Positions 2,664 through 17,029 are shown, counted from the stretch's first letter. The stretch: DNA of 64,000 nt from Candidatus Daviesbacteria bacterium (GCA_016186955.1 JACPKP010000009.1:97595-161594); one strand, 5' to 3'. Notes: generated by a model not told the origin, from the sequence alone. Made by a program: numbers and translations.

Positions 2664-2673
2664 ACTGAAAATT

Positions 2674-3657
2674 ATGGATACGTTACCCACTTTAAATACT
2701 GACTCCGCAGGTAAAATTATGGTTACCAATATTCCCACCATACTGTCTGACGAAAATGCGTCAGCTGCTATGAAACAACTGGCAAACGGGGCATGGGATG
2801 ACATTCATTCGATCTACGTGGTAGATAAAGAAAAAATACTCAAAGGTGTGATGCCGATACACAAACTTGTTACTGCAAAAGATGACGAGAGTGTTGCAGG
2901 ATTAATGGACCGTCCCAAAATAGTAGTAAAACCTGAAACTGACAAAGAAAAAGTGGCGGTTGAAGCATTAAAGAATGATTTAAAATCCGTGCCTGTTGTA
3001 GATGATGCAGGCCATCTCCTGGGTGCAATCAGCACCGACCAGATTTTTGATATTTTGCATGAGGAACACCTGGAAGATTTTTTGCGTTCGTCAGGTATTA
3101 GAGGTAAGGGTTCATGGATTATCAAATTGGCAACAGCCAACCTGCCGGATTTAATTAAATCAAGAATGCCCTGGTTGGTAGTAGGTTTGGGTGGGGGTAT
3201 AGGGGCCAGTTTTATAATCAGCAGGTTTCAGGGTTCTCTGGAGCAAAATGTGGCGCTGGCATTTTTCATCTCGATGATTGCGTATATGTCTGATGCGATA
3301 GGGACTCAGACAGAGACAATATTTATCAGGTCGCTGACTCTTTTAAAGTTTAATATATTCACTTACATTTTCAGGGAATTTATAACAGGGGCTGTCATAG
3401 GTTCTATTTTTGGAGTTTTAACCGGCCTGTTTGCAGCTTTTTTGTCAGGTTCATCTTCCATTGGTTTTGTGGTGGGGTTGTCGCTTTTTTTATCTATGAG
3501 TATGGCAACTGTATTGGCATGTATCACACCAATTATTCTGAAAGCTTTGGGGAAAGATCCTGCGGTTGGAAGCGGTCCGTTTACTACAGCAGTACAGGAT
3601 TTTGTAAGCCTGGCGGTTTACTTTACAATTGCTTCGGTAGTCTTATCTAAATTCTAG
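2674..3657 (+). CDS. mgtE: Magnesium transporter MgtE
   Basis: N-terminal MgtE-N and CBS pair (DDAGHLLGAISTDQIFDIL), then the MgtE TM domain with PFTTAVQDFVSLAVYFTIA. Confidence 0.85.
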   Translation: MDTLPTLNTDSAGKIMVTNIPTILSDENASAAMKQLANGAWDDIHSIYVVDKEKILKGVMPIHKLVTAKDDESVAGLMDRPKIVVKPETDKEKVAVEALKNDLKSVPVVDDAGHLLGAISTDQIFDILHEEHLEDFLRSSGIRGKGSWIIKLATANLPDLIKSRMPWLVVGLGGGIGASFIISRFQGSLEQNVALAFFISMIAYMSDAIGTQTETIFIRSLTLLKFNIFTYIFREFITGAVIGSIFGVLTGLFAAFLSGSSSIGFVVGLSLFLSMSMATVLACITPIILKALGKDPAVGSGPFTTAVQDFVSLAVYFTIASVVLSKF

Positions 3658-3664
3658 CGGGAAT

Positions 3665-3814
3665 TTAACAAAATTCACAGACGTTTTTTACCTCTTTGGG
3701 TATTTTGCAGCATGTAGCACAGCAATATACACTGCCTTGGTGGGTAAAACCTTGACCCGGTTTAATTATCTTACCGCATTTAACGCACTTGTGTTCTTTT
3801 GTGTCAGTCGCCAT
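3665..3814 (-). CDS. Small Cys-rich putative metal-binding protein (TRASH/YHS-like), 49 aa
   Basis: Hand-translated minus-strand ORF MATDTKEHKCVKCGKIIKPGQGFTHQGSVYCCATCCKIPKEVKNVCEFC. It has a CxxCG...YCCxxCC pattern and lies 32 nt downstream of the P-type ATPase on the same strand. Not in the 60-aa ORF track. Confidence 0.35.
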   Translation of the reverse strand: MATDTKEHKCVKCGKIIKPGQGFTHQGSVYCCATCCKIPKEVKNVCEFC

Positions 3815-3846
3815 TTTACTCCGTGTTTAATATATAACATATTAAA

Positions 3847-6381
3847 CTAATTTGTCAAATTTTTGTGGATTTTGAAAAGAGTTTGCAAGGTAACTCCTCC
3901 TATAGAAACAGGCAGATACAAAAGCAAAAACTGTAAGGCGACTGAACTGAAAACAGCCAACGTTAAATATTTGTTTGAGAGAAGGGGAAGGTTATATTCT
4001 GCGCGGATATCAACAAGACGTAACATTTCAAATAAAACAACTGCAGTAAAGGCAAGTGTTTGCCCGTGGATAATATCGTTTTTGAAAAAGAAAAATATAC
4101 CCAACGTAGCAAATGTTAAGAGCATGCTTGCAGAGATCATTTTTTTGAAAAAACGTTGATTGATTATCTGCTCTTTAAAATCCCGGGGTTTAGACTGCAT
4201 GATATTCTCCCTGGCAGGGTCAACTCCCAGGGCAATAGCAGGCAAGCCGTCTGTAACCAGATTTATCCATAAAAGGTGGATAGGTAAAAGAGGTATGGGC
4301 CAGTTGGCAGCCAAAGCTAAAAACACCACCCCAACCTCCATCATGTTTGAAGAAAGCAGGTAATTTACAAACTTCCGGATGTTGTCATAAATTGCCCGTC
4401 CTTCTTTTATGGCCTTTACAATGGTACTGAAGTTATCATCCAGTAAGATCATATCGGATGAATCTTTCGCTACATCTGTCCCTGTTATGCCCATGGCAAC
4501 ACCAATATCTGAGGTTTTTAAGGCAGGGGCATCATTGACCCCATCCCCGGTCATTGCCACCTGATGGCCGAGCGCCTTTAAAGCCTTGACTATCTTCAAT
4601 TTGTGTTCAGGATTCACCCTGGCATAGATGCTGATGTTTTCAACCTGATCCTGGAATTGTTGCTCGGTCAATTTATCAAGATCTAATCCTGTCATGCTTT
4701 TGCCTGTGATTCCTACCTCTTGTGCAATTGCCTCAGCTGTCAGAAGATGATCCCCTGTGATCATGATCACTCGTATACCCGCCTCATTTTGGCAAGTTGC
4801 TATTGTTTCTTTGATGCCTGTTCTTGGAGGGTCCATCATGCCCTGTAACCCCAAAAATACCAAGTCCGATTCGGCGTTTTGACCCCACCTCCCAGGTGTA
4901 ATCTCATTTTTTTCACCCGGGGGGTGTTTTACTTGCTTATATGCAAAAGCTAAAACTCTTAAAGCTTGAGAAGCCATCTCTTCATTAGTTTTCAGAATTT
5001 TTTGCCTGTCTTGTTCAGTCAGGTTTTCAACTTTACCGTTTCTCTCGATCTTGCTGCAGAGGTTCAAGATCACTTCGGTGGCCCCTTTACTGGCAACCAA
5101 CTCATCTTCCCCGTTTTTTGAAGAGGTAGTCATGAGCTTTCTATCTGAGGAAAAGGGTACTTCCAACACCCGGGTATATTTTGTGAGCAGTTCATTTTGG
5201 TCCACTCCGTTTTCAATGGCAACTTTAATTAAGGCTGCTTCAGTGGAATCACCTATAATTTCTCCGTCATTTTTTCTGGCATTGCTGGCAAGGATTGCTA
5301 TTTCATAAAGCTTTTTTAATTCTGCGGTGGGTTCTGTTAATTTATCGTTGGCATAGATTTTCCGCACACTCATAACCCCTTCTGTCAAAGTGCCTGTTTT
5401 ATCGGAACAGATTACGTCTGTTGAACCAAGAGTTTCCGCTGCGGGCAAGTTTCTAATTAGGGCGTTTTGTTTCAAAAGCCTTCTGGTGCCTAAGGCCAGA
5501 GAAATAGTAACAACTGCCGGTAAGCCTTCTGGAATGGCAGCAACTGCCAGTGCGACTGCAGAAATTAGCGCTTCTATGATCTGTTGGCTGCCAAAGACCA
5601 TCTCCTGGAAGGCGACCATAACTGAGATGCCAAGGATGATTTTGCCTATCACTCTACCCATCTTGTCCAGTTTCTGCTGCATGGGTGTTTCAGGTGATTC
5701 CTCCTCTGTCACCAGTTTGGCAATTTTTCCAATTTCTGTTGCCATGCCGGTAGCAACAACAATCCCGGTACCTTTTCCGGTAGAGACAATAGTCCCTGAA
5801 AAAAGCATGTTCTTTTGGTCTGCTATGGGCAGATCGCCTTTTAAAACATCGGATGTTTTGGAAACCGGGGTAGATTCGCCGGTAAGCGAGCTTTCAATAA
5901 TTTTTAAATTAATAGCTAGTGTCAGTCTGATATCAGCAGTGACCCGTTGTCCTTCCTCGATCTGGATCAGGTCTCCCGGTATGAGTTCGGTAGAGGGGAT
6001 TTTTACTAAATTACCATCCCTGATGACCAGGACTTCAGATGTAATAAGTTTTTTAAGGTGCTCAATGGCTTTTTCAATCCTATATTCCTGGATGAAACCA
6101 ACAACCGCATTAATGATTACAATAGCGATTATCATCAGTGCATCCAGTTTTTCCCCGAATAGGAACGAAATGACGGATGCAACTATCAGGATGATAACCA
6201 AAAAGTCGGTAAATTCGGAAAAAAATAAAGCCAGAGGGTTGATACCTTTTTTTTCTTTTAAGGAGTTGGGCCCGTAAGTTTTTAGCCTTGATTTTGCCTC
6301 TTCAACAGACAAACCTTTTTGCAGGTCGGTTTTTAAAAAAGTTGCAATTTGTTTCGGAGTTTGAGCAAATATCTTTTCCAC
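3847..6381 (-). CDS. P-type cation-transporting ATPase (P2-type, Ca2+/cation pump-like)
   Basis: DKTGTLT phosphorylation motif, TGDGVNDAPALK hinge, PEGLP in TM4 (not CPC, so not a heavy-metal P1B pump). 844 aa, GTG start. Confidence 0.9.
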   Translation of the reverse strand: MEKIFAQTPKQIATFLKTDLQKGLSVEEAKSRLKTYGPNSLKEKKGINPLALFFSEFTDFLVIILIVASVISFLFGEKLDALMIIAIVIINAVVGFIQEYRIEKAIEHLKKLITSEVLVIRDGNLVKIPSTELIPGDLIQIEEGQRVTADIRLTLAINLKIIESSLTGESTPVSKTSDVLKGDLPIADQKNMLFSGTIVSTGKGTGIVVATGMATEIGKIAKLVTEEESPETPMQQKLDKMGRVIGKIILGISVMVAFQEMVFGSQQIIEALISAVALAVAAIPEGLPAVVTISLALGTRRLLKQNALIRNLPAAETLGSTDVICSDKTGTLTEGVMSVRKIYANDKLTEPTAELKKLYEIAILASNARKNDGEIIGDSTEAALIKVAIENGVDQNELLTKYTRVLEVPFSSDRKLMTTSSKNGEDELVASKGATEVILNLCSKIERNGKVENLTEQDRQKILKTNEEMASQALRVLAFAYKQVKHPPGEKNEITPGRWGQNAESDLVFLGLQGMMDPPRTGIKETIATCQNEAGIRVIMITGDHLLTAEAIAQEVGITGKSMTGLDLDKLTEQQFQDQVENISIYARVNPEHKLKIVKALKALGHQVAMTGDGVNDAPALKTSDIGVAMGITGTDVAKDSSDMILLDDNFSTIVKAIKEGRAIYDNIRKFVNYLLSSNMMEVGVVFLALAANWPIPLLPIHLLWINLVTDGLPAIALGVDPARENIMQSKPRDFKEQIINQRFFKKMISASMLLTFATLGIFFFFKNDIIHGQTLAFTAVVLFEMLRLVDIRAEYNLPLLSNKYLTLAVFSSVALQFLLLYLPVSIGGVTLQTLFKIHKNLTN

Positions 6382-6480
6382 GTAATTTTAGTATATATCA
6401 TAAGCGAACCGGGGTGTACTCTCTTAAGAGAGGTTGTATTTTTATCTTTTGGGTGTATAATCAACCCACTAAGTTTAAAA

Positions 6481-7497
6481 ATGGAACGGGTTCAAGACCA
6501 TTACAACACACTTGAAGTGAGCCCAAAAGCCAGGCCCGAAATAATTGAGGCGGCTTACAGGACATTAGCCAAAATTTACCACCCCGATATAAAGACAGGG
6601 GATACAGATACATTTAAAGCAATAGTTTTGGCCCATGAAATTTTATCAGACCCGGCTAAAAGAGTTTTCTATGACCGGGAAAAAGATAAATTGGAAGGGA
6701 AAGTAATTGGGGATTACCGGTTCTTGAGTAAAATCGCTGAAGGCGCTTTCGGCAGGACATATAAAGCCGAGCATATAATAATTAGAGAACCCGTATGTAT
6801 TAAGGACTGCTCTAAAATATCACCACAAGCGGAAAAGATATTAATTGATGAAGCGAAAGCTGTTTGGGATTTGCGCCACTATGCCCTTCCCGCAATGAGG
6901 GGGTTGGTCAGGCTTGAAAACAAAAGTTTGGGGCTTGTGATGAGTTACATAGAGGGGCCTACGTTGGAACAAATTGTAGCAAAGGCTGGGAATATGGATC
7001 CCGAAGACGTAGCGTGGATGGCAGAGAGGTCGCTTAACGCCTTAAAGTATATGCATTATAAAGGTGTTATTCACGGAGATATTAAACCCCAAAATATTAT
7101 TATCCAGCCTGAAAGTCACATGGCTGTTTTAATAGATTTTGGGCTTTCAATGGTAAAACCGACTCAAAACTCTGATGCCAAAGGGTTTACACCTTATTTT
7201 GCTCCAAAGGAGCAGATTACCGGATTGGTTATATTACCGGAATCAGATCTTTACAGCCTTGGTAAGACAATGATTTATGCTTTGAGCGGAGGTAATTTAG
7301 ATTGCGTTAGAGATGGGTTGGTGCCAAGAATAGTGCCCGATGAAATGTGTATGCTAATAAGACGCCTGACAAGGGAAGATAGGGCAGAAAGACCTATCTG
7401 GGAAAACGAAGATCTCTGTGATACAATCGCAGATATGAGGGTTAAAGTTTTTGGAAGAAGAAGGTCAAATATGAAACCGGTAGCAGGTTTTTCTTAA
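6481..7497 (+). CDS. J-domain (DnaJ-like) fused to Hanks-type Ser/Thr protein kinase
   Basis: N-terminal J domain with HPD (DHYNTLEV...AKIYHPDIKTG...HEILSDPAKRVFYD). Kinase motifs: Gly loop EGAFGRTY, VAIK-like CIKD, catalytic loop HGDIKPQN, DFGLS, activation-loop FAPKE. Start placed at the ATG opening the J domain. Confidence 0.75.
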   Translation: MERVQDHYNTLEVSPKARPEIIEAAYRTLAKIYHPDIKTGDTDTFKAIVLAHEILSDPAKRVFYDREKDKLEGKVIGDYRFLSKIAEGAFGRTYKAEHIIIREPVCIKDCSKISPQAEKILIDEAKAVWDLRHYALPAMRGLVRLENKSLGLVMSYIEGPTLEQIVAKAGNMDPEDVAWMAERSLNALKYMHYKGVIHGDIKPQNIIIQPESHMAVLIDFGLSMVKPTQNSDAKGFTPYFAPKEQITGLVILPESDLYSLGKTMIYALSGGNLDCVRDGLVPRIVPDEMCMLIRRLTREDRAERPIWENEDLCDTIADMRVKVFGRRRSNMKPVAGFS

Positions 7498-7502
7498 AAA
7501 AC

Positions 7503-8456
7503 ATGTCAGAATCAGCGGATTTTAACCCTGGACCATGGCAAGGACATGACTTTAAAGCAGCCCGTGCTGTTTACGACAGGCATGCCGGCAGAAGCTATGC
7601 AGAAGCAGTAGCCCAGAATAAATCCACCAAAGATTTAGTGCCGCCCTCATTGCTCACCCAAAGCAGAAGGCCATTAGTGGTATCAATTGATTTAACTGGG
7701 TCAATGGAAGAATGGCCAGCTACAATCTGTGAAAAAATTGCTTATTTTGATCTTGAAGTCCAGGAATATTTAGGTGAAGATACGGAGGTAAGTTTTAACG
7801 GGATTGGTGATGCCACAAAAGGAGACAGATATCCTCTTCAAGTCAGGCCGTTTACCAAAGGTCTTGATTTAAAAGTACAGCTTTATAAATTAATTAATGA
7901 ACATGGTGGTGGTGGCGGTGGGGAAGAAAGCTATCAACTTGCCGCCCTTTATTATGCCAGAAAAGTTTCTATGCCTAATGCCATACGACCAATACATATA
8001 TTTATAGGGGATGAACAACCATATCCATCTGTTGATCCAACTCAAGCTAAAAATTTTGCCTATGAAGATTTACGTGAATCGGTTTCAACAAAGGGTATAT
8101 TTGAAGAGTTAAAACAGAAATATTCAGTTTACATTATCAGGAAGCCGTATCCCAGTATGGATAGCATTATCCAAGGCCATTGGGAAAGACTTTTGGGGGT
8201 GGATCACGTAGCGCCTTTACCTGATCCCAACAGGGTGGTTGATGTAATATTTGGCATTTTGGCAAAAGAGACAACCAGGATTGATTATTTTTATAATGAA
8301 TTGGATGGTAGGCAGACTCCTGCCCAAAGAGCGATTGTACGTGAATCTTTAAAAACAGTGCATACTCTCCCTAACGGCGATTTTAAAGCATTACGCTCAG
8401 GCCGTTCAGTTTTGCACAGGCCAATCCAGGGGGAAGATTCTGCCCCGTTAATTTAA
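7503..8456 (+). CDS. von Willebrand factor A (vWA) domain protein, TerY-like
   Basis: MIDAS-like VVSIDLTGSM, then a GGGGGGEESY Gly-rich loop and IFIGDEQPY. Starts 6 nt after the kinase stop. Confidence 0.65.
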   Translation: MSESADFNPGPWQGHDFKAARAVYDRHAGRSYAEAVAQNKSTKDLVPPSLLTQSRRPLVVSIDLTGSMEEWPATICEKIAYFDLEVQEYLGEDTEVSFNGIGDATKGDRYPLQVRPFTKGLDLKVQLYKLINEHGGGGGGEESYQLAALYYARKVSMPNAIRPIHIFIGDEQPYPSVDPTQAKNFAYEDLRESVSTKGIFEELKQKYSVYIIRKPYPSMDSIIQGHWERLLGVDHVAPLPDPNRVVDVIFGILAKETTRIDYFYNELDGRQTPAQRAIVRESLKTVHTLPNGDFKALRSGRSVLHRPIQGEDSAPLI

Positions 8457-9478
8457 TGGTTGAAATTGATTTGATGGTGACTCTTTGGCCCAGTTTCCCC
8501 CACTTTGAAAGGTTTGCAAACGACCGAAGACTTTCCGGCATCAGGCTAAACAGTGCCATGATGTCTAATCCTGAACTCGAATACGAGCTTGAGATAATAG
8601 ATAAGCTAAAACCTCCTGTTCCGCTTTACTATGATATTAAAGGGCGTCAGCTTAGGGTTACTAAAGTTCATTTAAACCCGGGTTATCTTGATTTAGAGCT
8701 AAACCACCCAATCAGCGTTAATACGCCGACAGTTGTTTTATTTAAAGCAGGGGCGGATGATGCTCTCTTGGAGAGGGTGGAAGAGGATGGTAACCGCTTA
8801 ATATTTTGCGGAGGACCGGAATACATGGTTATTGCAGGCGAGTCGCTGCATATACGTGATAAAAGTTTGAAGGTTGGCGGCCCTCAATTTACAGATTTGG
8901 AGCTTTTAAAGATTGAAAAAGTCAAAAAAGCCGGTTTTAAGCGGTACTGCCTCTCATATGTAGAAAACCAACAAGATGTTGATGAGTTTTTGGATTTAGT
9001 CGGTAGGGAAGCAGAGGTGTATTTAAAAATAGAAAATAAAAAAGGGTTAGAATATGTTAAAAATGAATTTCAAAAACAACCGAATCTATCGCTGATCGCT
9101 GCAAGAGGAGATTTATATGTTGAAACAGATATGCCTCATGAGATCTTGCCTGCTATGAGACTCATAATTGAAAAAGATCCCGGAGCAATGGTTGGTTCCA
9201 GAATACTGCTTTCAGTGGTGGACGCTCCGGTTAAGGATTTAAAAGAAGTATTGGAAGAGCTTCATGAAAATAGACTTGACCACAGCCAGGCTGCACAAAT
9301 CCTTTATTCTATGCTGACAACGACAGTACCCTCCTGTGTTGATTTCTCTGAGTTAGCCTGGCTTTATGATATCGGTTACCGGAAAATGCTACTTTGTGAT
9401 GAACTTTGTTTAAAAGAAAACCTTTTGACAACGGCGGTGAATGTTATTGATGTATTCAGAAGAGAATATAGTCCTTAG
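8456..9478 (+). CDS. Pyruvate-kinase-like TIM-barrel protein (A domain only, no C-terminal domain)
   Basis: Matches PK barrel motifs: IRLNSAMM~ARLNFSHG, YDIKGRQLRV~LDTKGPEIR, KIENKKG~KIENQEG, ARGDLYVE~ARGDLGVE. Only 340 aa. Its start overlaps the vWA stop (TAATG). Confidence 0.55.
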   Translation: MVEIDLMVTLWPSFPHFERFANDRRLSGIRLNSAMMSNPELEYELEIIDKLKPPVPLYYDIKGRQLRVTKVHLNPGYLDLELNHPISVNTPTVVLFKAGADDALLERVEEDGNRLIFCGGPEYMVIAGESLHIRDKSLKVGGPQFTDLELLKIEKVKKAGFKRYCLSYVENQQDVDEFLDLVGREAEVYLKIENKKGLEYVKNEFQKQPNLSLIAARGDLYVETDMPHEILPAMRLIIEKDPGAMVGSRILLSVVDAPVKDLKEVLEELHENRLDHSQAAQILYSMLTTTVPSCVDFSELAWLYDIGYRKMLLCDELCLKENLLTTAVNVIDVFRREYSP

Positions 9479-14859: not shown

Positions 14860-15639
14860 ATGAGAAAACCTGAAGTTATCGCTGTTTGCGGAGGGCAATG
14901 GGGAGATGAGGGTAAGGGGATTACGCAAGATGAGATCGAAGATAGAATTGCAGTTGCCCGTATTCCAGTTGAACAGGAATTTGGTAGTTTACCAGTTTTT
15001 AAAGTTAAACAAGGTAGGTTTATTAATGAAGTCCCTTTTCGTATAGACCCTGACTATAGAACAAACGATTGGGTTTTTAGGTTTTATCCTAAGTGGAGGG
15101 GATGGGAGCCAGGAACTAATGAGAAATATTTGGCTTATGCTTTTCCGCATGATTTAATACATTTTTATCAATTGGAGAGTTATTCAAAGAGATTAGGAGT
15201 TTTTAGAATTATGCCCAAAGCATTTCATCTAGTTTATGCACAAATTTTTGCTGATTGGTTAGAGGGCGCTGCAGATTTATCAACCTGGAAAGTTATATAC
15301 AATATTCTAAATTCCCAAAATGATTTTTTGGCGACTAATCAAGATGGACTTGGCAAATATTTCTCGGACAGGTTAGCAATGGTTTTAACAGGATTAAAAA
15401 AAGAAAAATTAATTGAAAACTCATCAATAAGCGATCTTGGTCTTCCTTTTTATCTTCCAGAGAATATGGGAAAATCTGCCAACCAACTAGCTGAACAATT
15501 GAAAATGAAAAAATCCGACAGATATGCTAGGGGTGTTTTGAGGAGCGCTAGCATTATATCGAAAACAGGCATCTCCCTTAAAGAATTATTACAGACCCCT
15601 ATGAGTAATAAGGAGTTAAAACAAAAGGCAGGGATTTAA
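14860..15639 (+). CDS. Hypothetical protein whose first 20 codons are a copy of the purA N-terminus
   Basis: 14860-14920 is near-identical (2 mismatches) to the purA 5' end 15641-15701 (MRKPEVIAVCGGQWGDEGKG), then diverges into a 240-aa sequence I could not assign. Stops 1 nt before the purA ATG. Confidence 0.4.
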   Translation: MRKPEVIAVCGGQWGDEGKGITQDEIEDRIAVARIPVEQEFGSLPVFKVKQGRFINEVPFRIDPDYRTNDWVFRFYPKWRGWEPGTNEKYLAYAFPHDLIHFYQLESYSKRLGVFRIMPKAFHLVYAQIFADWLEGAADLSTWKVIYNILNSQNDFLATNQDGLGKYFSDRLAMVLTGLKKEKLIENSSISDLGLPFYLPENMGKSANQLAEQLKMKKSDRYARGVLRSASIISKTGISLKELLQTPMSNKELKQKAGI

Positions 15640-15640
15640 G

Positions 15641-17029
15641 ATGAGAAAACCTGAAGTTATCGCTGTTTGCGGGGGGCAATGGGGGGATGAGGGTAAGGGG
15701 AAGATTATAGATTATCTTGCACAGGAGGCAGATGTTGTCATCAGGGCCCAGGGTGGAGACAACGCCGGGCATACAGTTGTAAATCCGTTTGGTAAGTTTG
15801 GGCTTCATCTTATACCTGCAGGAATTTTTAACCCTTTCACGGAAAACATTATCGGTGCAGGTGTTGCCTTAAATCCCAAGAGTTTAATGGAGGAGATGGA
15901 AAATTTAAGTCAGCATGGGGTGCCTTTAGATAATTTAAAAATCAGTCCCAAAGCACATCTGGTTTTTGATTATCACGAAGAGTTAGACAAGCTGCAGGAA
16001 CAGTTAAAAGGTAACGGAAAAATAGGGACAACCGGACGCGGGATAGGCCCCTGCTATATGGATAAGGCTGAAAGGGTGGGGTTGCGGGCAGAACTTTTGA
16101 CCGGCGACCCCTACATTCTGCTTGATGAAATGAGTAAAGCTCTAAAATCAAAGAGGGATGCGTTGGTTGGCAGAAATCTCGCAGCAGCGGTTGATAGTTA
16201 TCTTGAAAGCGAATATGGCGGGGGGCCGGGATTTATTTCCAATGAAGATATCGGCAGGATGGTAGTGGTGAGTGCGGATTTGATTCCCGACTCATTCCAT
16301 GCAGAATATTATGAAGAGTTAATTTTAAATGCGCACAGGCTGCTTGCCCCTATAATCACAGACACTGATGAAATTGTGCACCAGCGCCTGAATAAGAATT
16401 CGCGGATTTTGATTGAAGGGGCGCATGGGACTCTTTTGGATTTGGATCATGGAACATACCCAATGGTAACTTCATCAAGCCCGACAGTGGCCGGGCTACT
16501 TTTGGGTTCAGGGATCCCCCCTAAATATTTAACACGCTCGATAGGGGTGTTTAAAGCTTACCAAACCAGGGTTGGCGCAGGTGGCATGCCAACAGAGCTA
16601 AAAGATGCACAAGGTGAGTTAATCAGGCAGAAAGGGCATGAATTTGGGACTACCACAGGCAGGCCAAGAAGGGTGGGATATTTTGACACGTTAGCTTGGG
16701 AATACGCAATGAAAATGAATGGTTTTTCAGAAATTGCCCTGACAAGACTTGATATCTTATCAGGAGTCGGAGACTTAAAGATCTGTTATGAATATGAGCA
16801 TAAAGGAGAAATTTTAGAAAGCTTTCCAACTGATTCAAGAATTCTGGGTGAATGTAGCGCTCGTTATCTGGAAAATGATAAGAAAGAAGGTTGGGATGAG
16901 GATATCAGCGGAGTAAGGAGATTTGAGGATTTACCGCTTAATGCTCAGAATTATATAGGGAGTACTATTGCAAAACCAAAATTCGTTGGTGTTGGTGAGA
17001 AAAGGGAAGACCTAATTATTATAAAATAA
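15641..17029 (+). CDS. purA: Adenylosuccinate synthetase
   Basis: P-loop GGQWGDEGKGK, GDNAGHTV, TTGRGIGP, full-length family architecture. Confidence 0.9.
   Translation: MRKPEVIAVCGGQWGDEGKGKIIDYLAQEADVVIRAQGGDNAGHTVVNPFGKFGLHLIPAGIFNPFTENIIGAGVALNPKSLMEEMENLSQHGVPLDNLKISPKAHLVFDYHEELDKLQEQLKGNGKIGTTGRGIGPCYMDKAERVGLRAELLTGDPYILLDEMSKALKSKRDALVGRNLAAAVDSYLESEYGGGPGFISNEDIGRMVVVSADLIPDSFHAEYYEELILNAHRLLAPIITDTDEIVHQRLNKNSRILIEGAHGTLLDLDHGTYPMVTSSSPTVAGLLLGSGIPPKYLTRSIGVFKAYQTRVGAGGMPTELKDAQGELIRQKGHEFGTTTGRPRRVGYFDTLAWEYAMKMNGFSEIALTRLDILSGVGDLKICYEYEHKGEILESFPTDSRILGECSARYLENDKKEGWDEDISGVRRFEDLPLNAQNYIGSTIAKPKFVGVGEKREDLIIIK

What the first reader, a model, noticed from the sequence alone, without database searches (positions are those of the whole stretch)
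6481..9478. Translationally coupled operon: J-domain-Ser/Thr kinase + TerY-like vWA + truncated pyruvate-kinase-like barrel
Three genes are packed with 6-nt and 1-nt (TAATG) junctions, so they are almost certainly co-translated.
- Gene 1 fuses a DnaJ J domain (HPD present) to a Hanks kinase with intact catalytic motifs (EGAFG, HGDIKPQN, DFG, APKE-like).
- Gene 2 is a vWA protein with a MIDAS-like DLTGSM.
- Gene 3 reproduces the pyruvate kinase A-domain signatures (IRLNSAMM, DIKGRQLR, KIENKKG, ARGDLYVE) but is only 340 aa with no C-terminal PK domain.

A vWA + STK pairing recalls the TerY-P stress/conflict triad (vWA + kinase + PP2C phosphatase) known from comparative genomics. Here the phosphatase slot is instead occupied by a PEP-binding-like phosphotransferase barrel. 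I know of no described module with this combination. It could be a phospho-signalling or stress-response cassette in which the vWA protein is a kinase substrate or scaffold and the J domain recruits DnaK.
Basis: partly seen in the sequence, partly recalled or inferred. Interest (0 to 1): 0.75.

Follow-up and report, generated by a model that had tools for sequence, protein, structure and literature searches.

The report
Conserved kinase–vWA–pyruvate-kinase-like gene cassette
Three tightly packed genes (a J-domain protein kinase, a metal-binding adaptor-type protein and a shortened pyruvate-kinase-like enzyme) form a cassette I could not find described anywhere, which recurs almost unchanged in ultra-small bacteria, ultra-small archaea, some other bacteria and a giant phage; its function is unknown but it looks like a phosphorylation-controlled enzyme switch.

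Summary
Window 6481-9478 (+) holds three ORFs with a 5-nt gap and a 1-nt TAATG overlap.

- **Gene 1:** DnaJ J domain with HPD, plus a complete non-RD Hanks Ser/Thr kinase.
- **Gene 3:** a very divergent pyruvate kinase homologue (about 15% identity) with A and B domains only. All PK catalytic residues are kept.

The genome is Candidatus Daviesbacteria (CPR). The trio is strongly conserved:
- genes 2 and 3 are adjacent in 62 of 62 loci from CPR bacteria and DPANN archaea;
- the kinase is adjacent in 57, and nothing else is conserved around it;
- divergent copies occur in Eremiobacterota and in a 485-kb phage;
- a kinase+vWA pair occurs in about 200 cluster C mycobacteriophages;
- eukaryotic relatives of the vWA protein carry U-box domains.

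The TerY-P analogy holds only loosely. PP2C sits beside the trio in a few relatives rather than being replaced by the PK-like gene. The HPD motif is kept in only 34 of 57 kinases.

Most likely it is a mobile phospho-switch that controls a PK-type phosphotransferase. Function is untested, and I found no published description.

The parts
6481..7497 (+). Gene 1, 338 aa: J-domain Ser/Thr protein kinase
   Evidence: ORF. Pfam DnaJ E 1.5e-16 and Pkinase E 3.5e-29. About 50% identical homologues lie next to the gene 2 family in 57 loci.
6496..6675 (+). J domain (residues 6-65) with intact HPD (YHPDI)
   Evidence: Pfam DnaJ covers 6-65 of 63 profile positions, 60.7 bits against a cut-off of 27.8. HPD is kept in only 34 of 57 family members.
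6715..7494 (+). Hanks-type kinase domain (residues 79-338), non-RD (HGD), with conserved C-terminal tail FGRRRSNMKPVAGFS
   Evidence: Residues conserved in at least 90% of 57 homologues: G88, G91, K108, E124, H198-G-D200-x-K202-x-x-N205, D219-x-G221, T237, E244, D256, R304. Tail motif FGRxxSxMKPIPGF.
7503..8456 (+). Gene 2, 317 aa: cytosolic vWA-fold protein of an unannotated family (matches phrog_2971)
7689..7706 (+). MIDAS-like loop D63-L-T65-G-S67-M68, directly after strand beta1 (58-63). The second MIDAS element D170-E171 (nt 8010-8015) follows strand 164-169.
   Evidence: D63, T65, S67, M68, D170 and E171 are invariant in A2 and at least 95% conserved in 62 loci. Strand positions are from the model.
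8385..8453 (+). Disordered C-terminal tail of gene 2 (residues 295-317) with conserved G-[KR]-S-[VI] (S302) and terminal [KS][SP]L[LI]
   Evidence: pLDDT below 50 for 295-317. S302 is invariant in A2. The motif is seen across loci. Its role as a phosphorylation or docking site is inference.
8456..9478 (+). Gene 3, 340 aa: divergent pyruvate-kinase homologue with A (TIM barrel) and B (lid) domains and no C domain
   Evidence: Pfam PK 18 bits, below cut-off 30. NCBIfam pyruv_kin E 9e-6. A1 profile against solved PKs E 3.5e-9. AF2 pLDDT 90.8. Foldseek top 50 are all pyruvate kinases, E 1e-17, TMq 0.64-0.72, about 15% identity.
8657..8881 (+). Lid (B-like) beta domain of gene 3, residues about 68-142, inserted after the DxKGxxxR motif
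   Evidence: All-beta segment 67-133 in the model. It aligns to the PykF B domain but is shorter.

Best explanation
**What it is**

The three genes encode one self-contained, horizontally mobile three-protein cassette.
- Protein 1 is an active-looking, non-RD Hanks Ser/Thr kinase with an N-terminal J or J-like domain.
- Protein 2 is a cytosolic vWA adaptor with a metal-ion-dependent adhesion site (MIDAS) and a disordered, serine-bearing C-terminal tail.
- Protein 3 is a pyruvate-kinase-type phosphotransferase. It has kept the full PK catalytic set (Arg/Asn phosphate site, Asp-x-Lys-Gly-x-x-x-Arg, catalytic Lys-x-Glu, Mg-binding Asp, and Ser in place of the proton-donor Thr) but has lost the allosteric and tetramerisation C domain.

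**How it most likely works (inferred)**
- The vWA protein and the PK-like enzyme are made in equal amounts and form a complex through the MIDAS.
- The kinase phosphorylates the vWA tail and/or its own tail. In some relatives a neighbouring PP2C would reverse this.
- That phosphorylation state switches the PK-like enzyme on or off. The enzyme would then carry out a PEP-dependent (or pyruvate/2-oxo-acid-type) phosphoryl transfer to a nucleotide.
- External control by a kinase-vWA switch would thus replace the missing allosteric domain.
- In genomes like this one, where HPD is intact, the J domain additionally couples the kinase to DnaK.

**Shown versus inferred**
- Shown here: the folds, the conserved catalytic and MIDAS residues, and the tight, cross-domain conserved linkage.
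- Inferred: the complex, the phosphorylation targets, the substrate and the biological role. The role is probably a stress or infection response rather than core glycolysis.
For: **Domains and folds**
- Domain assignments.
- Kinase catalytic residues are conserved in at least 90% of 57 homologues.
- MIDAS residues are invariant and sit after beta1 and beta4 of the model.
- The PK catalytic set is conserved in the CPR/DPANN family and in all divergent trios at 28-44% identity. Its mapping onto E. coli PykF K220/E222/D246/T278 is visible in the HMMER alignment.

**Linkage**
- Genes 2 and 3 are adjacent in 62 of 62 loci and the kinase in 57. Three of the five exceptions are cut by contig ends.
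- No other gene family is conserved around them.
- Median gaps are 24 nt and 8.5 nt.
- The same trio occurs in 18 IMG/VR contigs, in Eremiobacterota and other bacteria, and in phage LR745208.1.

**Phospho-switch theme**
- PP2C lies next to the trio in L021, L029, L033, L043 and L070.
- Conserved Ser-containing tails are found on genes 1 and 2.
- Published precedents for vWA plus Ser/Thr kinase switches: the TerY-P triad (PMC11090510), and ArnB, whose phosphorylated C terminus mediates partner binding (PMC6509490).
Against: - No experiment exists, and no complex prediction could be run.
- Gene 2 has no sequence-level link to TerY or any characterised vWA family.
- HPD is lost in about a third of kinases, and the mycobacteriophage kinase has HGA instead of HGD. 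The kinase or J activities may therefore not be uniformly required.
- The kinase+vWA pair exists without any PK-like gene in about 200 mycobacteriophages and on a phage-like contig. The PK-like enzyme may be one exchangeable output rather than the regulated core.
- The substrate of the PK-like enzyme is unknown.
- High sequence conservation (50-65% identity across phyla and domains) and housekeeping neighbours would also fit a plain metabolic role.
Confidence: 0.45

Rival explanations
1. Gene 3 is simply the organism's glycolytic pyruvate kinase in a minimal CPR/DPANN form. The kinase and vWA genes would be its dedicated regulators, or merely neighbours. The cassette would then be core fermentative metabolism.
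For: - The complete PK catalytic set is present.
- JGI names several members 'pyruvate kinase'.
- No other PK homologue lies in the 64-kb window or in about 750 kb of related flanks.
- Neighbours are housekeeping genes.
- Sequences are strongly conserved.
Against: - Identity to real PKs is only about 15%, and the Pfam PK score of 18 bits is below the cut-off of 30.
- Linkage to an unrelated vWA gene holds in 62 of 62 loci.
- The trio also occurs in a 485-kb phage and in Eremiobacterota, there alongside a GGDEF-like gene.
- The archaeal copies form a clade nested among the bacterial ones, implying transfer.
- In complete Nanobdellota genomes, genes annotated as K00873 'pyruvate kinase' are patchy. 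They occur in Pacearchaeales that cannot make PEP by glycolysis (preprint 10.64898/2026.05.13.725050).
Confidence: 0.15
2. The cassette is a biological-conflict system: an anti-phage defence in cells, and a takeover or counter-defence module in phages. The J-kinase/vWA pair would sense infection or proteotoxic stress. The PK-like enzyme would be the effector, for example draining PEP or altering nucleotide pools.
For: - It is mobile and self-contained. Only the three genes are conserved, in ever-changing neighbourhoods.
- Transfer between domains is implied by the tree.
- Accessory genes vary: PP2C, a GGDEF-like gene, a second vWA, and a LAGLIDADG insertion.
- It is carried by phages.
- The gene 1 kinase domain matches defence kinases mad6 and PD-T4-6.
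- TerY-P-like vWA/kinase/phosphatase modules are reported as stand-alone defence systems (PMC11090510).
Against: - Genes 2 and 3 hit no PADLOC model.
- The kinase hits are generic to the kinase domain.
- The window neighbours are housekeeping genes, not a defence island.
- Sequence conservation is unusually high for defence genes.
- The full trio is in only 1 of 50,697 GenBank phage records.
- The viral status of the IMG/VR contigs is uncertain.
Confidence: 0.25
3. The cassette is an Hsp70-linked protein-quality-control device. The J domain brings DnaK to clients bound by the vWA protein, and the eukaryotic vWA-U-box relatives would be the ubiquitin-ligase version, CHIP-like in logic. The PK-like enzyme would supply local NTP or be a client.
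For: - The J domain with HPD is present here and in the phage trio.
- J-like remnants occur in distant kinases.
- Eukaryotic members of the same vWA family carry C-terminal U-box domains.
- A phage J-domain protein acting on DnaK has a precedent (PMC3486835).
Against: - HPD is missing in 23 of 57 kinases and the J domain is absent in four.
- No Hsp70 gene is conserved nearby.
- The idea does not explain the strict conservation of PK catalytic residues.
Confidence: 0.1

Closest known systems
TerY-P triad (TerY-like vWA + PP2C phosphatase + Ser/Thr kinase fused to a zinc ribbon or OB fold), as summarised in PMC11090510
   Same: - It pairs a MIDAS-type vWA protein with a Hanks Ser/Thr kinase in one compact, mobile operon.
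- PP2C is a neighbour in five related loci.
- It is proposed to be a phosphorylation switch.
   Different: - The vWA protein belongs to a different family that Pfam VWA models do not detect.
- No PP2C lies in this window.
- The kinase carries an N-terminal J domain, not a C-terminal zinc ribbon or OB fold.
- A PK-like enzyme is an obligatory third member.
ArnA/ArnB with kinases ArnC/ArnD of Sulfolobus acidocaldarius (PMC6509490; PDB 8s05)
   Same: - It is a cytosolic vWA protein with a helical C-terminal part and a tail that carries the phosphorylation sites, working with Hanks kinases.
   Different: - Here there is no FHA partner and no link to motility genes.
- Tail phosphorylation is only inferred.
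- A PK-like partner is present instead.
Canonical pyruvate kinase (EC 2.7.1.40; e.g. E. coli PykF, PKM2)
   Same: - It has the A-domain TIM barrel with an inserted B lid.
- Residues equivalent to PykF R32, N34, D66, K68, R73, K220, E222, D246 and E314 are conserved.
   Different: - Identity is about 15%.
- There is no C domain, so no known allosteric site or tetramer interface.
- The B domain is shorter.
- Thr278 is replaced by Ser, and Ser36 and His37 are not conserved.
- It is always encoded next to a vWA gene.
GAK / auxilin-2 (eukaryotic kinase + J domain protein). This comparison is from my own knowledge.
   Same: One polypeptide combines a Ser/Thr kinase with a J domain that recruits Hsp70.
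   Different: The domain order is reversed, GAK has extra PTEN-like and clathrin-binding regions, and there is no homology beyond the generic domains.
Deinococcus radiodurans DRA0331-DRA0334 operon (vWA, STPK, FHA, PP2C; preprint 10.64898/2026.01.23.701218, abstract seen)
   Same: vWA and Ser/Thr kinase genes are co-operonic as a signalling module.
   Different: That operon contains FHA and PP2C genes and has no PK-like gene or J domain.

Membership tests
J-domain proteins (Pfam DnaJ PF00226) | J-domain profile match above the curated cut-off | tested here: met
   60.7 bits against a cut-off of 27.8, residues 6-65.
J-domain proteins (Pfam DnaJ PF00226) | HPD tripeptide needed to stimulate Hsp70 | tested here: met
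   YHPDI is present in the window protein. Across the family only 34 of 57 keep HPD. Stimulation of DnaK was not testable.
Hanks-type Ser/Thr protein kinases (Pfam Pkinase) | Profile match plus the catalytic residues: Gly loop, VAIK Lys, alphaC Glu, HxD-x-K-x-x-N, DFG, and the APE region with a GT signature | tested here: met
   102.5 bits. G88, G91, K108, E124, D200, K202, N205, D219, G221, T237 and E244 are conserved in at least 90%. It has HGD, so it is a non-RD kinase.
von Willebrand factor A (vWA) domain | Sequence-profile match to a vWA family (Pfam VWA, VWA_2, VWA_3, VWA_CoxE) | tested here: not met
   No Pfam hit at E <= 1. No PDB sequence hit even with a 40-sequence profile.
von Willebrand factor A (vWA) domain | vWA (Rossmann-like alpha/beta) fold | tested here: met
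von Willebrand factor A (vWA) domain | MIDAS motif: DxSxS after beta1 and Asp after beta4 | tested here: met
   D63-x-T65-x-S67 follows strand 58-63 and D170 follows strand 164-169. All are invariant. The Thr-for-Ser variant and metal binding itself were not tested.
TerY-P triad | TerY-like vWA protein recognisable by sequence | tested here: not met
   No Pfam VWA hit and no PADLOC hit at E <= 1 for gene 2.
TerY-P triad | PP2C phosphatase in the operon | tested here: not met
   No PP2C homologue anywhere in the 64-kb window. One is present beside the trio only in L021, L029, L033, L043 and L070.
TerY-P triad | Kinase fused C-terminally to a zinc ribbon or OB fold | tested here: not met
   The kinase domain runs to residue about 320, followed by an 18-residue tail. 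The only extra domain is the N-terminal J domain.
Pyruvate kinase (Pfam PK PF00224 + PK_C PF02887; NCBIfam TIGR01064) | Barrel-domain profile match above the curated cut-off | tested here: inconclusive
   - Window protein: 18 bits against a cut-off of 30.
- TIGR01064: 24.5 bits against 306.
- Many family members carry a precomputed PF00224 hit, and the phage copy scores 32.5 bits.
- The family profile hits solved PKs at E 3.5e-9.
Pyruvate kinase (Pfam PK PF00224 + PK_C PF02887; NCBIfam TIGR01064) | Catalytic and metal-binding residues of the A domain | tested here: met
   R30, N32, D60, K62, R67, K191, E193, D219, S248 (in place of Thr) and E316 are invariant. They align to PykF R32, N34, D66, K68, R73, K220, E222, D246, T278 and E314.
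Pyruvate kinase (Pfam PK PF00224 + PK_C PF02887; NCBIfam TIGR01064) | C-terminal alpha/beta (allosteric) domain | tested here: not met
   The protein ends right after the last barrel helix at residue 340. PykF continues for about 130 more residues.
Pyruvate kinase (Pfam PK PF00224 + PK_C PF02887; NCBIfam TIGR01064) | PEP + ADP -> pyruvate + ATP activity | not testable with these tools
   This needs an enzyme assay.
Known anti-phage defence systems (PADLOC-DB 2.0) | All components match models of one system | tested here: not met
   Only the kinase domain matches generic defence kinases (mad6, PD-T4-6). Genes 2 and 3 have no hit.

The most novel reading that the evidence does not exclude
This is a previously unrecognised, ancient and mobile three-component system: a J-like Ser/Thr kinase, a new MIDAS-vWA family, and a C-domain-less pyruvate-kinase-type enzyme.
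- It is shared by CPR bacteria, DPANN archaea, other bacteria and huge phages.
- In it a PK-fold enzyme has been repurposed as the phosphorylation-gated output of a signalling or conflict switch.
- Its vWA component was inherited by eukaryotes as a family of U-box E3 ligases.
- Part of what metabolic reconstructions of ultra-small symbionts score as 'pyruvate kinase' would then be this enzyme rather than a glycolytic step.
Probability: 0.35. Interest if true: 0.85.

Novelty: new variant of a known kind. Interest (0 to 1): 0.7.

Why it matters
- **Widespread but unannotated.** The gene 2 family has at least 1,500 clusters at 50% identity and the gene 3 family at least 1,200 clusters at 90% identity. 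The gene 2 family has no Pfam model or name, and no paper on the trio turned up.
- **Retained in tiny genomes.** It is kept in some of the smallest known genomes (CPR, DPANN), where retained genes are usually important. It has crossed between Bacteria, Archaea and phages.
- **A new use of the pyruvate-kinase fold.** If the PK-like enzyme is controlled by an external kinase/vWA switch, that is a new way to use and regulate the fold.
- **Consequences for metabolic reconstruction.** Automatic 'pyruvate kinase' calls in CPR/DPANN reconstructions may be misleading.
- **Tractable entry points.** The link to about 200 cultured mycobacteriophages (kinase+vWA pair) offers an experimentally tractable way to study the pair in M. 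smegmatis. The eukaryotic U-box relatives offer an evolutionary lead.

Tried and rejected
**Searches on gene 2 that found nothing or little**
- Sequence-profile identification failed in Pfam, NCBIfam and PADLOC, and in PDB with both a single sequence and a 40-sequence profile.
- Only PHROGs gave a hit, to a family of unknown function.

- The afdb50 fold library was not available, so no annotated AlphaFold-database neighbours were obtained.
- The search for related loci with the mixed alignment A3 failed for lack of a conserved stretch.

**Literature searches with no description of the cassette**
- J domain + kinase + vWA + CPR.
- Pyruvate kinase-like + vWA.
- TerY triad.
- vWA + U-box + pyruvate kinase.
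- LR745208.
- Bxz1 kinase/DnaJ.
- Two Aravind-lab conflict-system papers mention neither pyruvate kinase nor this trio.

**Ideas considered and rejected**
- Chance adjacency: rejected by conservation in about 80 loci.
- A fourth universally conserved gene: rejected, because only antisense shadow ORFs and lineage-restricted neighbours were found.
- The PK-like gene replacing PP2C: rejected, because both co-occur in five loci.
- A pseudogenised or truncated PK: rejected, because all 1,243 relatives are the same length and keep the catalytic residues.

**Checks that were negative or could not be done**
- A paralogous PK, PP2C or second kinase in the window: none.
- Whether the IMG/VR contigs carrying the trio are real viruses: two flanks gave an ambiguous mix (LAGLIDADG, RNA ligase, DHFR, glycosyltransferase).


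Full report
**1. The observation**

The window has three same-strand ORFs at 6481-7497, 7503-8456 and 8456-9478.
- Gene 2 and gene 3 overlap by one base (TAATG).
- The ATG at 6481 is the right start for gene 1, because homologues align from residues 1-8 of that reading.
- No sigma-70-like promoter or terminator pattern above background separates the genes.
- Exact copies of the gene 2 and gene 3 proteins are on record as hypothetical proteins HYW46_05290 and HYW46_05295 of a Candidatus Daviesbacteria bacterium, a CPR/Patescibacteria lineage.
- The neighbours are ordinary housekeeping genes: a P-type cation ATPase, an L,D-transpeptidase, IMP dehydrogenase and adenylosuccinate synthetase.

**2. 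Gene 1**

- Pfam gives DnaJ (residues 6-65, 60.7 bits) and Pkinase (from residue 79, 102.5 bits). HPD is intact.
- In 57 homologues the Hanks catalytic residues are at least 90% conserved: G88, G91, K108, E124, H198-G-D200-x-K202-x-x-N205, D219-x-G221, T237, E244, D256 and R304.
- This points to an active Ser/Thr kinase of the non-RD type (HGD).
- A C-terminal tail motif, FGRxxSxMKPIPGF, is conserved.
- The J domain is less constant. Only 34 of 57 homologues keep HPD and four have no J domain. Distant kinases of the same cassette retain only weak DnaJ similarity (E 0.003-0.06).

**3. Gene 2**

- Nothing was found in Pfam, NCBIfam, PADLOC or PDB sequences, even with a 40-sequence profile.
- D63-x-T65-x-S67 follows strand beta1 and D170-E171 follows strand beta4. 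These are the positions of a MIDAS, and the residues are invariant.
- The last roughly 23 residues are predicted to be disordered. They carry a conserved G-[KR]-S-[VI] and usually end in [KS][SP]L[LI].
- There is no signal peptide-like N terminus. Instead the N terminus is a conserved soluble motif.

**4. Gene 3**

- The window protein scores below Pfam's PK cut-off (18 against 30 bits). The family profile nonetheless hits solved pyruvate kinases at E 3.5e-9.
- The model (pLDDT 90.8) retrieves only pyruvate kinases among the top 50 PDB matches (E about 1e-17, TMq 0.64-0.72, about 15% identity).
- The invariant residues R30, N32, D60, K62, R67, K191, E193, D219, S248 and E316 align with E. coli PykF R32, N34, D66, K68, R73, K220, E222, D246, T278 and E314.
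- The protein consists of the A barrel and a shortened B lid, and it stops where the PK C domain would begin.
- It is therefore a catalytically competent-looking PK-fold phosphotransferase without the allosteric and tetramerisation domain.
- It is far more divergent than orthologous PKs usually are. That last point rests on my general knowledge.

**5. Conservation**

- The gene 2 and gene 3 families have 785 and 1,243 clusters at 90% identity in the large protein collection. Members are 50-65% identical to the window proteins.
- A complete Sungiibacteriota genome (CP066690.1) and Woesearchaeota contigs with archaeal ribosomal and Spt5 neighbours carry all three genes.
- Among 59 loci from GTDB species representatives, plus these and the window (62 in all), genes 2 and 3 are adjacent in 62 of 62.
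- The J-kinase is adjacent in 57 of 62. Three of the five exceptions are cut by contig ends, and in five of the 57 the kinase is divergently oriented.
- Clustering all flanking ORFs shows no other conserved family.
- Median gaps are 24 nt (gene 1 to gene 2) and 8.5 nt (gene 2 to gene 3). Close packing is typical, but the exact TAATG overlap is not.
- A rough neighbour-joining tree of genes 2 and 3 puts nearly all DPANN copies in one clade nested among CPR copies. It has no support values, and taxa come from record titles, some clearly unreliable. This suggests inter-domain transfer.

**6. The wider family**

- A profile search of 1.84 billion representatives finds 1,544 gene 2 relatives at E <= 1e-3, of which 333 are at E <= 1e-30.
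- More divergent cassettes keep the kinase-vWA-PK-like order:
  - L071/L072;
  - L068, with a J-like kinase;
  - L070, with PP2C and a second vWA;
  - an Eremiobacterota MAG (L073) and another bacterium (L074/L075), which add a fourth gene with a GGDEF-type domain at 27-37 bits.
- The PK catalytic residues are kept in all of these.
- PP2C lies directly beside the trio in L021, L029, L033 and L043.
- An AbrB-PhoU gene lies near the trio in 12 loci, mostly archaeal.

**7. Phages and eukaryotes**

- Gene 2 matches phrog_2971, a family of unknown function, at E 2e-24.
- In GenBank phages, gene 2-like genes occur in 204 records, and 201 of them are Mycobacterium phage records; every one listed is a ~155-kb genome of the cluster C type, and the one inspected (Sebata) is a Bixzunavirus.
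- In phage Sebata the gene 2-like gene (gp261) lies directly after gp260. That gene is annotated as a Ser/Thr kinase, has an N-terminal HPD-containing J-like segment, and reads HGA in place of HGD.
- The 485-kb uncultured phage LR745208.1 carries the complete trio in order: DnaJ+Pkinase with HPD, the vWA-like gene, and PK at 32.5 bits. Identity to the window proteins is 39-45%.
- LR745208.1 is the only one of 50,697 phage records with the PK-like gene.
- Eighteen IMG/VR contigs also have the full trio, but their viral nature is uncertain.
- Eukaryotic relatives of gene 2 come from MMETSP and EukProt transcriptomes (Stereomyxa, Trimastix) and from a contig with eukaryotic genes. They start with MGG and are fused to U-box, NUDIX or SAM domains.

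**8. Interpretation**

- Shown here: three proteins with defined folds and intact active-site or MIDAS residues are inherited and transferred together.
- Inferred:
  - the vWA and PK-like proteins form a complex;
  - the kinase, with PP2C where present, sets a phosphorylation state on the conserved Ser-bearing tails;
  - that state gates a PK-type phosphoryl transfer;
  - the J domain, where HPD is intact as it is here, adds a DnaK link.
- I give this mechanism about 0.45.
- The biological role is open.
  - Mobility, phage carriage and variable accessory genes favour a stress or infection (conflict) role.
  - Strong sequence conservation and housekeeping neighbourhoods favour a metabolic-control role.
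- The 'plain glycolytic PK' reading is disfavoured but not excluded. I could not scan the whole genomes.
- A 2026 preprint reports that genes annotated as K00873 'pyruvate kinase' are patchy in complete Nanobdellota genomes. It finds them in Pacearchaeales that cannot make PEP glycolytically. That fits, but does not prove, the idea that some such calls are this enzyme.

**9. Comparison with known systems**

- The nearest concepts are vWA plus Ser/Thr kinase switches:
  - the TerY-P triad;
  - ArnA/ArnB, where the phosphorylated ArnB C terminus mediates binding;
  - a Deinococcus vWA-STPK-FHA-PP2C operon.
- Membership in TerY-P fails on all three defining features tested here.
- The PK-like partner, the J domain and the new vWA family make this a new variant of that kind rather than a member.
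- No paper describing it was found. The library is incomplete, so prior description cannot be excluded.

**10. Verdict**

- Novelty: new variant of a known kind.
- Interest: 0.7.

Noticed in passing
window 14860-14920 and 15641-15701: A 61-nt direct repeat (97% identical) makes an unannotated 259-aa ORF (14860-15639, no Pfam hit) start with the same 20 residues as the adenylosuccinate synthetase gene that follows it (15641-17029). It looks like a 781-bp insertion or duplication at the 5' end of purA.
   Followed up: partly
L097 (Mycobacterium phage Sebata NC_041993.1) 2667-4798; 201 Mycobacterium phage records: ~155-kb Mycobacterium phages of the cluster C type (Sebata is a Bixzunavirus) carry a two-gene version of the cassette. 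gp260 is a J-like (HPD) plus kinase-like protein with HGA instead of HGD, so possibly a pseudokinase. It is directly followed by gp261, a homologue of gene 2. There is no PK-like gene, and a PurA-like gene lies two genes downstream.
   Followed up: partly
L096 (uncultured phage LR745208.1, 485 kb) 5932-8895: The complete J-kinase / vWA / PK-like trio sits in a huge-phage genome at 39-45% identity to the window proteins. This is the only one of 50,697 GenBank phage records with the PK-like gene.
   Followed up: yes
P0364, P0369, P0372, P0383, P0384 and about 2,500 relatives; L066 8001-9233: Eukaryotic relatives of the gene 2 vWA family begin with MGG and are fused to C-terminal U-box (E3 ligase), NUDIX or SAM domains. 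They come from protist transcriptomes (Stereomyxa, Trimastix, MMETSP) and from a contig with mitochondrial-carrier, La and L35Ae genes. The ~300-330-aa members that lack these fusions include bacterial copies, two of which (P0480, P0463) lie inside trios.
   Followed up: partly
L073 8866-10446; L074 8963-10618: In an Eremiobacterota MAG and another bacterium the trio is followed by a fourth gene of 526-551 aa. Its N terminus is a GGDEF-type nucleotide cyclase domain (27-37 bits), and the remaining roughly 400 residues are unknown.
   Followed up: partly
L021 3907-4650, L029 2846-3658, L033 8011-8889, L043 4046-4822, L070 509-1267: A PP2C phosphatase gene lies directly beside the complete trio in five loci (four within the CPR/DPANN-type set, plus the divergent cassette L070). 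None is present in the window.
   Followed up: yes
12 related loci, mostly archaeal, e.g. L003 9818-10924, L016 2158-3117: A roughly 315-aa AbrB/MazE-like plus PhoU-domain protein lies within 1-2 kb of the trio in 12 loci, on either side and either strand. This could be shared ancestry among related archaea or a loose functional link to phosphate sensing.
   Followed up: partly
L092 3439-4952 (IMG/VR contig, 442 kb): A LAGLIDADG homing endonuclease gene and a 243-aa ORF are inserted between the kinase and the vWA gene. The flanks carry RNA ligase-like and isochorismatase-like genes, and in L081 a DHFR gene, so these large IMG/VR contigs may be real huge phages.
   Followed up: partly
L020 6985-7947; L070 3698-4795; L036 6374-7237 and L058 7092-8000: There are variations inside the cassette. 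The vWA gene is tandemly duplicated in L020 and L070. An unrelated roughly 290-aa gene with no Pfam hit is inserted between the vWA and PK-like genes in two loci whose record titles are archaeal (L036, L058).
   Followed up: partly
window 8456-9478, residues about 255-290 of gene 3: The window protein and its closest relative (L006) carry a roughly 32-residue helical insertion (lower pLDDT, 65-87) before the conserved VPSC motif. A differently sequenced insertion occurs at the same spot in L001 and L068, and most family members have none.
   Followed up: no
record titles of L006, L011, L014, L015, L022, L035, L036, L045, L049, L054, L064: Several MAG records that carry the trio are titled Gammaproteobacteria, Spirochaetales, Bdellovibrionales, Methanosarcinales, Binatia or Obscuribacterales. 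Their trio sequences nest among CPR or DPANN copies. For example, L006 is 79-91% identical to the Daviesbacteria window. The titles are probably placeholder or wrong taxonomy.
   Followed up: no
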